Under the pieces are notes generated by a model, which had not been told where the DNA came from, ran no database searches, and was given only the letters and a program-made list of their open reading frames with translations. From the IMG/VR virus record IMGVR_UViG_3300010362_000530, positions 1 to 36,920 of that record: DNA of 36,920 bases; one strand, given 5' to 3'. The position numbers and the translations under genes are program-made. Source of the DNA: a virus. Its lineage: Duplodnaviria; Caudoviricetes. Shown here piece after piece: positions 22,495 to 33,034 of the stretch (the stretch's first letter is position 1; every line of letters starts with the position of its first letter).

Positions 22495-22815
22495 GTGTCA
22501 AGACCAATGAAGCCGGTCAAAGCCGGAAGGATCGTCCGCAAAACTATCACGTTCACCCGGGCCGCCTACGAGCGGCTCATGGAGGAGCGGGACCGTCGCG
22601 ACAGTGAGGTCATTCATGCGTATCAGATCTCCGAGATTCTGGTCGAGTATGTGATCCGGGGAGGCAAGGCGCTGCCGATATCGCAATGGGAGGAGGGGCT
22701 GCTCAAGGGCGCCGGCGTCGAGCCGCCGCGGATCCCGCCGGCAGGCGCGAAACGCAACCGGAAACCGAACAGCAGAGAGGCCGGAGATGCCGATACCGGA
22801 GCCGCTAGCGCTTGA
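22495..22815 (+). CDS. Putative ribbon-helix-helix DNA-binding regulator
   Basis: GAGGAG RBS. RKTITFTRAAYERL...ISEILVEYV fits the beta-helix-helix pattern. First gene after the promoter. Confidence 0.6.
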   Translation: MSRPMKPVKAGRIVRKTITFTRAAYERLMEERDRRDSEVIHAYQISEILVEYVIRGGKALPISQWEEGLLKGAGVEPPRIPPAGAKRNRKPNSREAGDADTGAASA

Positions 22816-22942
22816 GCATGCTCACCATTGCGACCTGTGCAAAAGGCTGCCGGGCGTGCGGACGGTCGATATTTTCTACTGGGTCTGCGAGAACTGCTAT
22901 TGGAACTACCTGACGACTCTGGAGCTGGAGCGATACCGATGA
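22787..22942 (+). CDS. 51-aa CxxC...CxxC zinc-finger microprotein, absent from the ORF track
   Basis: MPIPEPLALEHAHHCDLCKRLPGVRTVDIFYWVCENCYWNYLTTLELERYR, with GAGG upstream and an ATGA overlap with the next gene. Confidence 0.65.
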   Translation: MPIPEPLALEHAHHCDLCKRLPGVRTVDIFYWVCENCYWNYLTTLELERYR

Positions 22943-23940
22943 CCGACAAAATCCTGGAGTGGCTCCGACGCCGGCAGAAGGGTCTGGGCGGCAGCGACAT
23001 TCCGGTGATCACTCACGATGATCCGCGCAAGACCGAATATGAACTGGCGCTCGAAAAGACGGCTGACCCGGCGCTGCTTGAAGAGCCGCCGCGGGATCCG
23101 GCCACGATCACAGACCTAGACGTCGGCAATGCGATCCAGTCAGGTTTAGTCCAGCTCACGGCGCGGCGCTTTGGGCTGACCGGCGTTCAGGAAAACGTCA
23201 TGGTGGAGCATCCCGACAATCGCATCCTGCGGGGCAGTCTCGATGCGGCCTTCGATGGCGGGCTGATCGAAGTCAAGACGCTGGGCGAATGGAGCCCCGA
23301 CCGCTATGGCGAGGGCGCGGAAGGGATCCCCGCCCGGCATCAGCTTCAGACGTGGTGGTATCAGATGATCCGCAAGGGCTTCGCGATCATCGCTATCTTT
23401 GACCGCGGGCGCCTCTCCTGGAGAATTGTCGAGCAAGACCCCGTGATGGGCGACTGTCTCGCCGAGATAGGGCTCGATTGGTGGGATCGGGTTGTGGTGC
23501 GCGGCGTCATGCCGCCCATGACCTTCAGTCCCAAGGTGCAGCGCATGCTCCAGCGTCAGTATCCGACGCACAAACGGCCCGACATCAGGCCGGCGGAAAA
23601 GGACGAGCTGGAGCTACTGACCGAGTATCTCTGGTTGCGCATCAATCTGGACGAGATGGAGGTGCGCCGCAGGAACGCCGAAGTCACGCTGCAGAAAACC
23701 ATCGCCGATCGCGAGGGAATCCGTTGGCCCGATGGTCAGGTGACCTGGAGACGGACCAAGGATTCACAGGTAATCGACTGGGAGAGCATGTCCCGCGGCC
23801 TGCTCAACGAGTTTGTCGAGGATCCCGTGAAGCGGCAGGAGCTGCTCGATTTCTACACCAGGACAAAAGAAGGCTCGCGCCGGTTTCTGCTTACTTCGAA
23901 ACTGCGCACCAAACAAACCAGGGAAGAGGAGGCCGCATAA
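22939..23940 (+). CDS. YqaJ-like viral recombinase-family (lambda Exo-like) exonuclease
   Basis: WLRRRQKGLGGSD, GSLDA, IEVKT and QLQTWWYQ motifs. Start reassigned to the ATG at 22939. Confidence 0.9.
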   Translation: MTDKILEWLRRRQKGLGGSDIPVITHDDPRKTEYELALEKTADPALLEEPPRDPATITDLDVGNAIQSGLVQLTARRFGLTGVQENVMVEHPDNRILRGSLDAAFDGGLIEVKTLGEWSPDRYGEGAEGIPARHQLQTWWYQMIRKGFAIIAIFDRGRLSWRIVEQDPVMGDCLAEIGLDWWDRVVVRGVMPPMTFSPKVQRMLQRQYPTHKRPDIRPAEKDELELLTEYLWLRINLDEMEVRRRNAEVTLQKTIADREGIRWPDGQVTWRRTKDSQVIDWESMSRGLLNEFVEDPVKRQELLDFYTRTKEGSRRFLLTSKLRTKQTREEEAA

Positions 23941-30547: not shown

Positions 30548-30563
30548 GGTCCGCGCCCCGCTG

Positions 30564-30600
30564 GCGGCGGCTTCTCGCAAGGAGGCCGCCGCTGGCGTTT
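30564..30600 (+). terminator. GC-rich hairpin with GCAA tetraloop, probable terminator
   Basis: GCGGCGGCTTCTC-GCAA-GGAGGCCGCCGC with G-U pairs. The U-tract is weak. Confidence 0.55.
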
Positions 30601-30613
30601 CACCCCAAGATCA

Positions 30614-30642
30614 TTGATGGATTATAAATATGTTGTTAACGT
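30614..30642 (+). promoter_or_regulatory. Putative promoter for a leaderless recombination-module transcript
   Basis: TTGATG, 17-nt spacer, TAACGT with extended TG, 6 nt before the ATG at 30649, which has no SD. Confidence 0.45.
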
Positions 30643-30648
30643 CGGATT

Positions 30649-30993
30649 ATGACGGACACTTCAACTGCCACCCGGTTGCCCTATGGCGCCGGGAGCATTC
30701 AATTTCGAGGGCAGGTTTTCTGGGCCTGCTACAAGACGAACCAGGGCGAACTCTCCCAGGTGAATACGCATACCGCCGACCGCGGGTTAGCGCTCAAGCT
30801 CTGCGCACAGCTTGTCCTGGCGCAGTGGCGCGAGCGCCTCGCCGATCTGGAGGCGATCGCTGATGGCCGCCAGGAAAATCAAGGTCAGGGTGAAGCCGGC
30901 GGAAGAGACGCCAGACGGCGAGGAGCTGCTCGTTCGGGCGCTGCGGGCCACCGTAAAACTGGGCGAAAAGGTACTCAGGGAGGAACACGGTAA
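30649..30993 (+). CDS. Small protein resembling a tyrosine-integrase arm-binding domain (RDF/excisionase candidate)
   Basis: R..YGAGSIQFRGQVFWACY....G......T.T.D...A.KL pattern. TAATG-coupled to the recombinase. Confidence 0.55.
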   Translation: MTDTSTATRLPYGAGSIQFRGQVFWACYKTNQGELSQVNTHTADRGLALKLCAQLVLAQWRERLADLEAIADGRQENQGQGEAGGRDARRRGAARSGAAGHRKTGRKGTQGGTR

Positions 30994-31072
30994 TGGCGGC
31001 AAGCGCACTCGTAAAACCGAGTCCCCAACAGACGATGCTCATCGGAGCGAAGATCACCAGGGTGAGCCTTGA
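30863..31072 (+). CDS. Possible overlapping small basic protein
   Basis: GGAGG 9 nt before the ATG at 30863 (MAARKIKVRVKP...). Overlaps both neighbours. Confidence 0.35.
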   Translation: MAARKIKVRVKPAEETPDGEELLVRALRATVKLGEKVLREEHGNGGKRTRKTESPTDDAHRSEDHQGEP

Positions 31073-32828
31073 GCGTCAGGTCGGCAACTATTCAGCCGAT
31101 GCGCAGGACCGGAAGTTTGACAAGCTGGGCCAGGAGAACGGCGTCATTTTTCCCGACGAATTTCGCGTCGATGACGAAGGCTACAGCGGCGCGGACTTCA
31201 ACCGGCCCTCGATCAAGAAAACTATGCGCTGGGTGAAGGAAGGCCGCATCAACGTCGTGGGTTGGGCGCACATTGACCGCTTCGCCCGCAACGTCGAGGG
31301 CGGGCTGGCGACGATTCGGATGTTTCGCAAGGCAGGGGCGCAGATCCTGCTGGGGCATCTGGGCCTGTACCGGGATGAATCGACTTTCCGGCTGCACATG
31401 CTCATCTACATGATGCTCGCCGAGCATCAGCGGGACGTGATTCGCGAGAAGTCGATCGAGGGCGTCTTCGAGAAAGTCCGCAAGGGGTTCGCGCACGGTG
31501 GCCGCTCGCCGTATGGATGGCGATTCGTCACCGCCCTGGAGCTGGCCGCGAAAGAAGTCGAGCAGGCCCGCCGGGAAGGCCGCGAACCGGTGATCGAGCG
31601 CAAGCCCAAGAACGTTCACGAGCCGGTCGCCGAGCATCATAGGGTCCTGCACCTGATGGAGGATGCCATCCTCGCCGGCGAGAGCCAACGCGGCGTCTGC
31701 CGGTTTCTGCTGGAGCAGGGCGTCAAGAGCCCGACCGGCAAACCACGCTGGAATCCGACGACCGTGACCAGCATTGTCCACGACCTGCTTTACTCGACTG
31801 CCATTTGGCATTACAACAAGCACATGAACGTCGAGGTCGAGCCGGAAGATATGCGCAACCCCAACGGCGATCGCCACCGCATGAAGACCGGACACCGGCT
31901 GCGGGCCGAGAGCGAATGGATCGAACAGAAGCTGGCCGGCGGCCCCGTCTGGACGCCCCAACGGCAAGCCGAGCTGATCGTCGCCCTGGAGCGCAATGGT
32001 CGCACGTCCGTTGGCAAGCCCGCCCGCCCGGCGTCTGAGGGCGGCGTGAAGTCCGTTCTGTCGGGCATGTTGACATGCGGTCGCAGGACCATCACCGGCG
32101 AGATCTGCAACCATGCATGGGCGCCGCGGCAGAAGTCCACTCCCAACGGGCGCCGTCTGCGGTACGGCTGCACCAACCGTGATGACCTGACGGGCGCGGA
32201 GCTGTGCCAGAAGGTCACTGTAGAGCGCACGGGCAGCGGCCCGCGGCATGCGGGCAACCCGACCAAGGAAATTCGCACCTGGGACGGCCCCATGCTGGAG
32301 GAAACTCTCTGCCAGGGCGTTGCCGATGCTCTCATCGCGCAATTGCCTGATCTCGTGCGTCGGCACCAGGATCAGATGAACGACAGTTTCGACGCCGCCG
32401 AACTCGACAGCATGAAGGCGAGGGAGAAAAAGCTGGCGGCCAAGCTGGACGAAGCGCGGCGGAAGGAAATTTTGGCGGATGACGCCGAAGCCAAGGAGAC
32501 GTATTCTAATCTGGTGGCGGAACTCAAGGGCGAACTGAAGCTGCTTCAGAGGCGTCTCGCTACGATGGCCGGCGAGGCTGAAGAGATCGTCGTGAACTAC
32601 CGCACCATCGCAGCCAAGGTCAAAGCTGCCGCAACCGCACGCCTTCCTGAGAACCGGCGGGCGTTCCTGCTGATCTGGGTGGCCGAGATCGTCATGCTGG
32701 AGCACGAGGCTGAAGTGACGCTGAAAGTGCCCATAGCGAACTCAACCAGGGGTGCTAACTGTCCAGTGCAGCAACCTGCACTTGACAATTACATCCACCT
32801 GAAAACAAAGGTTCGGGTCGCCGCATGA
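30993..32828 (+). CDS. Large serine recombinase (phage integrase)
   Basis: RVS catalytic motif, D.GYSG....RP, DRFARN, PYGW recombinase domain, LSGMLTCG Zn-ribbon and coiled coil. 611 aa. Confidence 0.93.
   Translation: MAASALVKPSPQQTMLIGAKITRVSLERQVGNYSADAQDRKFDKLGQENGVIFPDEFRVDDEGYSGADFNRPSIKKTMRWVKEGRINVVGWAHIDRFARNVEGGLATIRMFRKAGAQILLGHLGLYRDESTFRLHMLIYMMLAEHQRDVIREKSIEGVFEKVRKGFAHGGRSPYGWRFVTALELAAKEVEQARREGREPVIERKPKNVHEPVAEHHRVLHLMEDAILAGESQRGVCRFLLEQGVKSPTGKPRWNPTTVTSIVHDLLYSTAIWHYNKHMNVEVEPEDMRNPNGDRHRMKTGHRLRAESEWIEQKLAGGPVWTPQRQAELIVALERNGRTSVGKPARPASEGGVKSVLSGMLTCGRRTITGEICNHAWAPRQKSTPNGRRLRYGCTNRDDLTGAELCQKVTVERTGSGPRHAGNPTKEIRTWDGPMLEETLCQGVADALIAQLPDLVRRHQDQMNDSFDAAELDSMKAREKKLAAKLDEARRKEILADDAEAKETYSNLVAELKGELKLLQRRLATMAGEAEEIVVNYRTIAAKVKAAATARLPENRRAFLLIWVAEIVMLEHEAEVTLKVPIANSTRGANCPVQQPALDNYIHLKTKVRVAA
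32756..32791. repeat. 36-bp imperfect dyad, candidate attP
   Basis: TAACTGTCCAGTGCAG-caac-CTGCACTTGACAATTA, 14 of 16 positions symmetric, inside the recombinase 3' end. Confidence 0.55.
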
Positions 32829-33034
32829 AGGCGACCCAAACTCGAGTGAACTACCCCGAGCCGCCGTCCAGCCCTAGCGCTGGCGGCGGCTTTTGCATTG
32901 ATACACCTGAGACGGATCGATACGGATCAATCCAGGTTGATACCGGCTGGCAGTGGACCTGCCGATGGTGCGGCCACGGCAACCGTGGAACCGACTCCGG
33001 CTATTTCTGCGAACGCTGCGGGTGCCACCGATGA
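32825..33034 (+). CDS. Small Zn-ribbon protein (start uncertain)
   Basis: W.CRWCG..N......CERCG, ATGA overlaps at both ends. The 5' part overlaps the terminator. Confidence 0.5.
   Translation: MKATQTRVNYPEPPSSPSAGGGFCIDTPETDRYGSIQVDTGWQWTCRWCGHGNRGTDSGYFCERCGCHR
32859..32894 (+). terminator. Intrinsic terminator downstream of the recombinase
   Basis: GCCGCCG(T)CCAGC / GCTGGCGGCGGC stem followed by TTTT. Confidence 0.7.

What the first reader, a model, noticed from the sequence alone, without database searches (positions are those of the whole stretch)
32731..32828. Candidate attP inside the serine integrase gene: integration would rewrite the integrase C-terminus
Seen: a 16+4+16 dyad (TAACTGTCCAGTGCAG-caac-CTGCACTTGACAATTA, 14/16 symmetric, 32756-32791) lies in a lower-GC patch at the end of the recombinase ORF, centred on codon 594 of 611, and the protein ends KVRVAA. 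Known: large serine recombinase att sites are imperfect dyads around a central dinucleotide, C-terminal -AA can be a ClpXP degron, and in mycobacteriophage integration-dependent immunity attP lies in the repressor gene and removes such a tag. Inference: recombination here would swap the last ~17 residues, giving different integrase isoforms in the free and prophage states. That would be a self-editing lysogeny switch in a phage with no visible CI.
Basis: partly seen in the sequence, partly recalled or inferred. Interest (0 to 1): 0.8.

Follow-up and report, generated by a model that had tools for sequence, protein, structure and literature searches.

The report
Phage attachment site inside integrase gene
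A soil phage carries the DNA site it likely uses to insert into its host inside the end of its own serine-integrase gene, so insertion, seen in four related prophages that sit in an acidobacterial permease gene, would replace the enzyme's last 17 residues; whether that changes the enzyme's behaviour is untested.

Summary
The 16+4+16 dyad at 32756-32791 is the only one of its class in the window (about 0.07 expected by chance). It is centred on codon 594 of a 611-residue large serine integrase that ends KVRVAA.

The attP reading is strongly supported by relatives. The dyad is kept at the same place in 15 integrase genes of 27-49% identity, and its two arms co-vary. In four relatives (L007, L024, L022, L028) the integrase gene stops resembling its kin exactly at the central dinucleotide. 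From there it continues as an ADOP-family permease gene of Acidobacteriota, broken at profile position about 291-295 (codons C-A-N-V-A-N|L). One Blastocatellia genome holds 115 copies of that motif.

There are two polarity classes. AA-centred sites are joined to the permease sense strand, and TT-centred sites to the antisense strand.

Integration therefore rewrites the integrase C-terminus. Neither junction was found for this phage itself, and the reciprocal junction was found in no relative.

The degron or lysogeny-switch idea remains untested. The tail is conserved as a peptide, but it is predicted to be a structured strand and it overlaps nucleic-acid signals.

Earlier notes of this scan found the same layout on other DNA. 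My paper searches found no report of it for serine integrases.

The parts
30993..32828 (+). Large serine integrase gene, 611 aa (P0001)
   Evidence: Pfam Resolvase PF00239 (E 3.2e-17) and Recombinase PF07508 (E 5.3e-05, 23.8 bits against a cut-off of 21.1). PHROG 95 integrase, E 1.5e-41. Invariant S25 and four invariant Cys in the family alignment. Profile match to SPbeta integrase 9dxh, E 9.6e-15.
32756..32791 (.). attP core dyad: two 16-nt arms around a 4-nt centre. The conserved symmetric zone reaches about 32751-32796.
   Evidence: It is kept in 15 relatives. 78.5% of arm cells are complementary, against 24-44% when the partners are slid. 14 of 18 arm positions show changes on both arms.
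32773..32774 (.). Predicted crossover dinucleotide AA, bases 2-3 of codon Q594
   Evidence: The centre of symmetry is the same in all 15 sites. Junction forms L007, L024, L022 and L028 switch from phage to host sequence at this position.
32775..32828 (+). Codons 595-611 and the stop codon. This is the part of the integrase that would be left at the other prophage end and replaced by host-encoded residues.
   Evidence: conserved tail; peptide kept through synonymous changes; residues 585-597 have low confidence; strand 600-608 lies in a block with pLDDT 87.
32811..32841 (.). Hairpin with the integrase stop codon in its loop. On the minus strand it is followed by a T-rich run.
   Evidence: Repeat I5. 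Individual folds place a hairpin over the stop codon in 11 of 12 relatives, with differing stem sequences. The scan calls it terminator-like on the minus strand.
32860..32894 (+). GC-rich hairpin followed by TTTT, a likely intrinsic terminator of the integrase operon
   Evidence: Read from the sequence. Similar hairpin-plus-T-run elements follow the integrase gene in relatives (flanks printed). The consensus scan did not call it; the stem has a bulge.
30649..30993 (+). 114-aa ORF abutting the integrase start. It is a conserved neighbour of unknown function.
   Evidence: tblastn hits directly upstream of the integrase in 6 of 11 relatives' loci searched (L003, L011, L012, L013, L021, L026). No Pfam, PHROG or NCBIfam family.

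Best explanation
The dyad at 32756-32791 is predicted to be the core of the attachment site (attP) of the large serine integrase encoded at 30993-32828, with strand exchange likely at the central AA (32773-32774) inside codon 594.

Shown directly:
- The site is a unique, strongly symmetric dyad inside the last 56 codons of the gene.
- The same dyad sits at the same place in 15 integrase genes of this family, and its arms co-vary.
- In four relatives the integrase gene is joined at exactly this centre to an ADOP-family permease gene of Acidobacteriota, at the codons for C-A-N-V-A-N|L.

Inferred for this phage:
- A dimer of the integrase binds the two arms.
- The site pairs with the permease motif, whose Asn codon supplies the matching AA, and cuts and rejoins there.
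- Because its centre reads AA on the integrase strand, the phage would enter so that its integrase gene runs on into the permease sense strand, out of frame.
- The prophage integrase would keep residues 1-594 and gain an arbitrary host-encoded tail.
- The conserved last 17 residues, the stop-codon hairpin and the terminator would move to the other prophage end, behind the truncated 5' half of the permease.
- Excision would restore both genes.

Whether the tail swap changes integrase activity or stability is not shown. I rate 'it matters' at about one in two. The reasons are that the lost piece is conserved as a peptide and is predicted to be a beta-strand.
For: 1. Uniqueness. There is 1 dyad of this class in the window against 0.07 expected.

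2. Family conservation. In the protein alignment of 20 homologues (37-49% identity), 15 share the tail, with P0014 carrying an insertion, and 4 diverge right at the centre codon.

3. DNA-level symmetry. In 13 attP-form sites, 16-21 of 29 positions are symmetric about the same centre. The three junction forms tabulated there score 9-12.

4. Formal count on 15 sites:
- 78.5% complementary cells, against 23.7-43.7% for slid partners.
- 14 of 18 positions with changes on both arms.
- 0 of 500 shuffles reach the observed values.
- Examples of paired arm changes are visible (L009, L011 and L019; L021; L091).

5. Junction forms:
- L007: left arm + AA + permease sense strand. The host frame starts at the AA and matches TIGR03434 ADOP at E 3.7e-45, profile positions 291-413 of 803.
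- L024 (IMG/VR 'provirus'): the same arrangement, ADOP E 4.8e-11, profile 291-321.
- L022: left arm + TT + antisense of a permease 5' half. ADOP E 3.3e-80, profile 1-295; MacB_PCD E 1.9e-21. PadR-like, HigA-like and MetH-like genes, so named by my reading of the ORF translations, lie beyond it. Terminase and ParB-like phage genes lie upstream of the integrase.
- L028 ('provirus'): as L022.

6. Synteny. Homologues of the window's downstream replication gene follow the integrase in 5 attP-form loci, and those of o33939 and the HNH gene in 7. None follows it in L022.

7. Both polarities exist as intact sites. 14 of 15 sites have AA at the centre. L093 has TT.

8. The target is abundant. The motif occurs 115 times in the Blastocatellia genome G001, against 1 for the reversed control. 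18 of 20 sampled copies encode the LLIACANVANL-type helix.
Against: - No attB, attL or attR of this particular phage was found. The only public run holding it is its probable source, kept as contigs, and shows no alternative join.
- The reciprocal junction (permease 5' half joined to the right arm) was found in no relative.
- The antisense junctions need a TT-centred attP. That is shown at DNA level only once, in a 27%-identical relative (L093). For closer kin it rests on Val or Leu at the centre codon of proteins whose DNA I could not fetch.
- One protein (P0053) combines a Gln centre codon with an antisense permease arm. This fits neither class.
- In 401 sampled Acidobacteriota genomes the integrase family was found in one only.
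- No recombination assay exists.
Confidence: 0.85

Rival explanations
1. First reader's full reading. The site is attP and the swapped tail is a proteolysis tag. The free-phage integrase (ending -VAA) would be short-lived, and the prophage form would be stable or otherwise different, giving a self-editing lysogeny switch.
For: - All 15 tails of the attP form in the alignment end in -AA, or in -AAA in P0017.
- The peptide V-R-V-A-A is kept through synonymous codon changes.
- The tmRNA tag of a host-type genome, G001, is ANTELAMAA, so -AA ends mark proteins for degradation there by analogy.
- The tail is absent from all four junction forms.
- In mycobacteriophages, an AA-ended ssrA-like tag is removed by integration from a repressor whose gene holds attP (PMC9934374, passage seen).
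Against: - Residues 600-608 are predicted as a beta-strand, in a block with pLDDT 87, after a low-confidence linker. They do not look like a free tag.
- More distant kin end in -RRVA or -RVA with a single Ala.
- The same codons carry a stop-codon hairpin and a minus-strand terminator-like T-run, so nucleic-acid constraints overlap them.
- No link to a repressor is visible, and the record is incomplete.
- No stability data exist.
Confidence: 0.2
2. The site is attP, but the tail swap is a neutral by-product. The reading frame simply runs through attP to the next stop, and the enzyme works the same with any tail.
For: - The conserved serine-integrase core aligns with SPbeta integrase only up to profile position 529 of 570, so the tail lies beyond the usual fold.
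- Residues encoded by the arms and the centre (585-597) have pLDDT below 50.
- Host-encoded tails differ in sequence and length between junction forms.
- The arm-encoded residues change in step with the DNA dyad.
Against: The last nine or so residues lie beyond the symmetric arms. They are still kept as a peptide across 27-49% identical kin, with synonymous variation. They are also predicted as an ordered strand.
Confidence: 0.3
3. The dyad is not attP. It would be an operator, an RNA hairpin, or a by-product of coding, and the real attP would lie in a flanking intergenic region such as 30600-30650 or 32895-32945.
For: - No junction of this very phage was seen.
- The upstream intergenic stretch is AT-rich.
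Against: - Four relatives switch from phage to host DNA at the dyad centre, not in the flanks.
- Arm covariation shows selection on DNA symmetry.
- The protein residues follow the DNA changes rather than the reverse.
Confidence: 0.03

Closest known systems
Phage large serine integrases (Listeria A118/LI, Bxb1, phiC31, SPbeta SprA)
   Same: - Resolvase catalytic domain, recombinase domain, Cys-rich zinc-ribbon region and long coiled coil.
- attP is an imperfect dyad of about 45 bp around a non-palindromic central dinucleotide.
- The target lies inside a protein-coding gene.
- The site architecture was compared with PMC3783163 (passages seen).
   Different: - attP lies inside the 3' end of the integrase's own reading frame, so recombination edits the enzyme.
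- The target is a motif repeated about a hundred times per genome in a paralogous permease family.
- Both centre polarities (AA and TT) occur in the family, with opposite insertion orientations.
- My four paper searches found no serine integrase described with attP in its own gene.
Myxophage Mx8 IntP/IntX
   Same: attP lies within the integrase coding sequence, and integration creates a new 3' end of the gene (PMC6070905, passage seen).
   Different: - Mx8 Int is a tyrosine recombinase. I state this from recall.
- It targets neighbouring attB sites in the Myxococcus chromosome, not a permease family.
- The altered activity of the prophage form was shown there. It has not been shown here.
Integration-dependent immunity of mycobacteriophages (BPs type)
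   Same: Integration removes a C-terminal AA-ended tail from a phage protein whose gene contains attP (PMC9934374, passage seen).
   Different: - There the edited gene is the repressor and the integrase is a tyrosine enzyme. The latter is from recall and from the abstract of PMC3694055 in the listing.
- Here the edited gene is the serine integrase itself.
- No degradation has been shown here.
phiRv1 of Mycobacterium tuberculosis
   Same: A serine integrase that uses a repeated chromosomal element as several alternative attB sites.
   Different: The repeats are REP13E12 elements, few in number. They are not a hundred-member permease family. attP is not known to me to lie in the integrase frame.

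Membership tests
Large serine recombinase (phage serine integrase) | N-terminal resolvase-type catalytic domain with the nucleophilic serine | tested here: met
   PF00239, E 3.2e-17, residues 22-165. R23-V24-S25 is invariant or nearly so in 20 homologues.
Large serine recombinase (phage serine integrase) | Recombinase domain followed by a zinc-ribbon domain with an inserted coiled coil | tested here: met
   PF07508, 23.8 bits against a cut-off of 21.1. Four invariant Cys: 362, 372, 393, 405. Long helices span 432-526 in the model. The profile aligns with SPbeta integrase 9dxh over positions 67-529. PF13408 is on record for most homologues. It was not reported for this protein at E <= 0.01.
Large serine recombinase (phage serine integrase) | attP is an imperfect inverted repeat of 40-50 bp around an asymmetric central dinucleotide | tested here: met
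   The centre is AA in 14 of 15 family sites and TT in one.
Large serine recombinase (phage serine integrase) | attL and attR junctions share the central dinucleotide with attP and attB | tested here: inconclusive
   The integrase-side junction was seen in four relatives, with AA or TT at the centre and the permease Asn codon supplying it. The reciprocal junction was not found. No junction of this phage was seen.
Large serine recombinase (phage serine integrase) | Catalyses attP x attB recombination without host factors; excision needs a directionality factor | not testable with these tools
   No assay was possible, and no directionality factor was identified. The ORF overlapping the stop codon is not conserved.
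Mx8 IntP/IntX-type self-edited integrase | attP inside the integrase coding sequence, with integration giving a new 3' end | tested here: met
   This is shown for relatives and inferred for this phage.
Mx8 IntP/IntX-type self-edited integrase | Tyrosine recombinase chemistry | tested here: not met
   The protein is a serine recombinase. It works like Mx8 in layout but is not a member.
Mx8 IntP/IntX-type self-edited integrase | The prophage form has altered activity | not testable with these tools
   There is only a structural hint: the lost segment is predicted as an ordered strand.
Integration-dependent immunity | attP inside the repressor gene | tested here: not met
   The gene holding attP is the integrase. 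No repressor was recognised in the window.
Integration-dependent immunity | A C-terminal ssrA-like tag is removed by integration | tested here: inconclusive
   The -AA end is present and would be removed. Its action as a tag is untested. Distant kin end in a single Ala.

The most novel reading that the evidence does not exclude
The integrase carries a record of its own recombination state. Only the free-phage form has the conserved C-terminal strand and -AA end, while the prophage form has an arbitrary host-encoded tail. The two forms would differ in activity, directionality or lifetime. That would make a serine integrase whose direction or dose is set partly by editing its own gene rather than only by a separate directionality factor. 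It would be coupled to a target motif present about a hundred times per host genome and usable in either orientation by flipping two central bases.
Probability: 0.3. Interest if true: 0.85.

Novelty: new variant of a known kind. Interest (0 to 1): 0.62.

Why it matters
- **Engineering tools.** Serine integrases are widely used genome-engineering tools, and their directionality is thought to rest on the att sites, the coiled coil and a separate directionality factor. A natural family in which every integration and excision rewrites the enzyme's own conserved C-terminus is a ready-made test of whether the tail contributes to directionality, dose or stability.
- **Host and target.** The work gives an uncultured soil phage group a host (Acidobacteriota) and a target. 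The target is a conserved membrane-helix motif in a permease family with about a hundred copies per genome. That means many low-cost landing sites.
- **Polarity.** The AA and TT polarity classes are a natural demonstration that the central dinucleotide alone sets insertion orientation.

Tried and rejected
- **Single-protein scans.** Scans of viral contigs and genome contigs with the integrase alone found no relative. Alignment-based scans did.
- **Genome sample.** The family profile was found in 1 of 401 sampled Acidobacteriota genomes, G001, and there as an intact attP-form phage contig. This gave no extra prophages.
- **Reads.** One run holds the stretch. It is the probable source and is kept as contigs. 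Laying it gave the source contig, a short match from a related phage (the L003 type) and one small unrelated piece. There were no joins and no loose end at 32773/32774. This says nothing either way.
- **Dyad pattern scan of viral contigs.** 24 hits, of which 2 are family members (L043, which is the L026 contig, and L061). The other 22 are unrelated sequences; 19 of them are AT-rich (GC 0.24-0.45) and the rest lie between 0.45 and 0.48.
- **Reciprocal junction.** A pattern scan returned only the L022 contig and one chance hit inside a structural gene (L170).
- **Other ends of the two 'provirus' records.** No permease domain was found elsewhere in them.
- **ORF overlapping the integrase stop (window 32825-33034).** I considered it as a coupled gene or directionality factor. 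I rejected it because its counterparts are 9-155 aa long and unrelated.
- **Stop-codon hairpin.** RNAalifold gave no consensus because loop lengths differ. Single folds were used instead.
- **P0053.** A permease paralogue that would explain it was not found in G001.
- **P0010.** Its DNA, which would test a Val centre codon, is not in viral contigs. Only a 60% relative is.
- **Zinc-ribbon motif.** By eye I looked for the motif shifted 5 bp between attP and attB, as in the A118 model (PMC3783163). The inner motif CAACGT sits at the same distance from the centre in attP arms and in the permease left arm. I saw no clear shifted outer motif, so this is inconclusive.
- **Loci dropped before the counts.** L006, L010 and L014-L017 hold only 5' parts of the integrase. 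L018 is a distant 28% partial match. Duplicate records of one contig were counted once: L020 and L066 = L012; L023 and L088 = L013; L025, L037 and L090 = L019; L027 = L011; L087 = L021; L089, L169, L030 and L038 = L022; L043 and L092 = L026.
- **Paper searches.** Searches found no serine integrase with attP in its own gene. One search found no link between ADOP and phages. Only search listings and the passages named were read.
Full report
**What the window is**

The window is an IMG/VR virus record. It is linear and about 70% complete by CheckV. It starts inside a portal gene. It then runs through protease, decoration, major head and tail genes, a RecE-like exonuclease, the integrase, a lysozyme, an HNH endonuclease and a replication initiator. 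Nearly all genes are on the + strand. Phage genes lie on both sides of the integrase, so this is the unintegrated form of the genome. An intact attP is therefore expected somewhere.

**Checking the observation**

- The dyad is real and sits at the stated place: arms 32756-32771 and 32776-32791, 14 of 16 complementary, 4-nt spacer.
- The ORF 30993-32828 encodes 611 residues ending KVRVAA.
- The centre of symmetry falls on the last two bases of codon 594.
- GC dips to 0.53-0.54 there.
- It is the only dyad of this strength in the whole window. Thirty Markov simulations gave a mean of 0.07.

**The protein**

- It is a large serine recombinase: Resolvase and Recombinase Pfam domains and PHROG 95 integrase.
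- The family alignment has an invariant serine and four invariant cysteines.
- A profile match to SPbeta integrase reaches profile position 529 of 570.
- The last 26 or so residues therefore lie beyond the usual core.

**Relatives at the protein level**

A protein search gave 26 hits, most at 37-49% identity. In the alignment of 20:
- 15 share a tail of the type A-N-C-x-x-x-(Q/E)-...-D-N-Y-I-x-L-K-T-K-V-R-V-A-A. One of them, P0014, carries an insertion.
- 4 (P0008, P0012, P0013, P0016) lose all similarity right at the centre codon.
- P0020 is aberrant.

**Relatives at the DNA level**

Alignment-based scans recovered the DNA of relatives from metagenome, genome and viral collections. One further site, L061, came from the dyad pattern scan.
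- In 15 distinct sites, including the window, the same dyad sits at the same distance from the end of the conserved core.
- In the 13 attP-form sites tabulated, 16-21 of 29 positions are symmetric about the same centre.
- The arms differ between phages but change together within each phage. Examples are L009, L011 and L019, then L021, then L091.
- Counted formally over 18 arm positions in the 15 sites, 78.5% of cells are complementary, against 23.7-43.7% when the partner arm is slid by 1-3 columns.
- 14 of the 18 positions show changes on both arms, and none of 500 shuffles reaches the observed values.
- The encoded residues follow the DNA changes. Selection is therefore on DNA symmetry, as expected of a site bound by a recombinase dimer.

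**Junction forms**

Four relatives show what recombination at the centre produces.

| Locus | Centre | Joined to | ADOP (TIGR03434) match |
|---|---|---|---|
| L007 | AA | permease sense strand | E 3.7e-45, profile 291-413 of 803 |
| L024 (IMG/VR 'provirus') | AA | permease sense strand | E 4.8e-11, profile 291-321 |
| L022 | TT | antisense of a permease 5' half | E 3.3e-80, profile 1-295 |
| L028 ('provirus') | TT | antisense of a permease 5' half | pattern match only |

- In L007 and L024 the host reading frame starts at the central AA.
- In L022 the permease 5' half also matches MacB_PCD at E 1.9e-21. PadR-like, HigA-like and MetH-like host genes, so named by my reading of the ORF translations, lie beyond it. 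Terminase and ParB-like phage genes lie upstream of the integrase.
- Both kinds of junction thus map to the same point of the permease, from opposite sides.
- That point is the Asn codon closing C-A-N-V-A-N, in a membrane helix.
- Synteny breaks there too. In attP-form loci, homologues of the window's downstream genes follow the integrase: o33939 and the HNH gene in seven loci, the replication gene in five. In L022 host genes follow instead.

**Two polarities**

- The junctions joined to the sense strand have AA at the centre on the integrase strand. Those joined to the antisense strand have TT.
- A serine recombinase can only join half-sites whose 2-nt overhangs pair. This follows from established knowledge of the family, and PMC3783163 describes the site architecture (passages).
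- The TT junctions therefore require phages whose attP centre is TT.
- Of the 15 intact sites, 14 have AA. One (L093, 27% identical) has TT, with a CTT codon.
- In proteins whose DNA I could not fetch, the centre codon is Q or E in most. It is V in P0010, P0023, P0028, P0033, P0038 and P0039, and L in P0047, P0050 and P0054. V or L at this codon allows, but does not prove, a TT centre (GTT or CTT).
- Reading frames backwards from the protein, P0008 and P0057 (E/Q centre) fit permease sense junctions, and P0016 (V centre) fits an antisense one. These are inferences from peptides only.
- P0053 fits neither class and stays unexplained.

**The target family**

- The Blastocatellia genome G001 also holds an attP-form phage contig of this family.
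- It carries the A-N-V-A-N pattern 115 times, against once for the reversed control.
- 18 of 20 sampled copies encode the same permease helix.
- The sampled copies themselves form a weak dyad about the same AA.
- The integrase thus targets a conserved motif of a hugely expanded paralogous family.
- Earlier notes of this scan report tyrosine-integrase elements using another motif of the same family as landing pads. These are unchecked AI notes.

**What integration would do here (inferred)**

- This phage has AA on the integrase strand, so it would enter with its integrase gene running into the permease sense strand, out of frame.
- Residues 1-594 stay, and residues 595-611 are replaced by host-encoded sequence. 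In L007 that open frame runs on for more than 100 codons by my reading, and in P0008 for more than 80 residues.
- The old tail, a hairpin spanning the stop codon, and a terminator-like hairpin with a T-run go to the other prophage end, behind the truncated permease.

**Does the swap matter?**

For:
- The last residues lie beyond the symmetric arms yet are kept as a peptide with synonymous variation. Val uses four codons, Arg uses CGG and AGG, and Ala uses three or four.
- The AlphaFold model (14-sequence alignment, mean pLDDT 80) gives residues 585-597 less than 50 but makes 600-608 a strand, in a block with pLDDT 87, following the hairpin 563-580.

For a degradation tag in particular:
- The -AA end, and the host-type tmRNA tag ANTELAMAA.

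Against a simple tag:
- The ordered strand.
- Distant kin end in -RVA.
- The same codons overlap nucleic-acid signals. A stop-codon hairpin is seen in 11 of 12 relatives with differing stems, and the scan calls it a terminator-like site on the minus strand.

No tool here can settle this.

**Comparison with what is known**

- The layout matches myxophage Mx8, where attP lies within int and integration makes a new 3' end (PMC6070905, passage). That enzyme is a tyrosine recombinase (from recall).
- It also recalls integration-dependent immunity, where an AA-ended tag is removed from a repressor (PMC9934374, passage). Here, however, the edited gene is the integrase.
- Four searches of the paper library found no serine integrase with attP in its own gene. 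Only listings and the named passages were read.
- The scan itself has noted the same layout on other DNA. Notes e1-5946937 and e1-9786035 concern soil phages, the latter 'probably into a permease gene'. Notes e1-2402922, e1-5330313 and e1-9977282 concern tRNA-targeting elements.

**Verdict**

- The attP reading and the C-terminal rewriting are well supported through relatives.
- The switch and degron reading is open.
- This is a new variant of a known kind.

Noticed in passing
window 32811-32841: A hairpin holds the integrase stop codon (TGA) in its loop. Counterparts with different stem sequences occur in 11 of 12 relatives. In the window it is followed on the minus strand by a T-rich run, so it scans as a minus-strand terminator. 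All 14 integrase genes examined end in TGA.
   Followed up: partly
window 30559-30597 and 32860-32894: Two GC-rich terminator-like hairpins flank the module made of the 30649 ORF and the integrase. They share a 15-nt stretch (30559-30573 and 32878-32892), read. It is unclear whether this marks a cassette boundary or only similar terminators.
   Followed up: no
window 30649-30993: A 114-aa ORF abuts the integrase start. It is conserved directly upstream of the integrase in 6 relatives' loci and has no known family. It is a candidate partner of the integrase. No hit was seen in the junction-form loci L022, L024 or L028.
   Followed up: partly
window 32825-33034: The ORF that overlaps the integrase stop codon (ATGA) contains the terminator-like hairpin. 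Its counterparts in relatives are 9-155 aa long and unrelated. It is probably not a gene.
   Followed up: yes
G001 (Blastocatellia genome), whole genome: The permease motif pattern occurs 115 times, against 1 for the reversed control. This shows a very large ADOP paralogue family in one 10.2-Mb genome.
   Followed up: partly
protein P0053 (no DNA held): This is a junction-like tail with a Gln centre codon followed by Pro and then the antisense permease arm. It fits neither polarity class. A paralogue that would explain it is absent from G001.
   Followed up: partly
protein P0008 (no DNA held): The integrase frame runs on for more than 80 residues past the centre. By eye, the last part looks like the N-terminus of an IS-type transposase. 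This was not tested.
   Followed up: no
L007:716-2370: In this junction form, the integrase frame read from the match start stops after 416 codons, although the similarity goes on to residue 587. The host permease frame also breaks near 2770. This is either a decaying prophage or sequencing error.
   Followed up: no
window 22623-23012 (minus strand): A 129-aa ORF on the opposite strand has a weak Transposase_20 (IS110 family) match at E 1.3e-4, 22.7 bits against a cut-off of 21.3. It overlaps plus-strand ORFs and may be spurious.
   Followed up: no
protein P0014 (no DNA held): This attP-form relative has about 10 extra residues between the two arm-encoded motifs and a Cys-rich insertion of about 24 residues earlier in the protein. 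If real, its dyad spacing would differ from the rest of the family.
   Followed up: no
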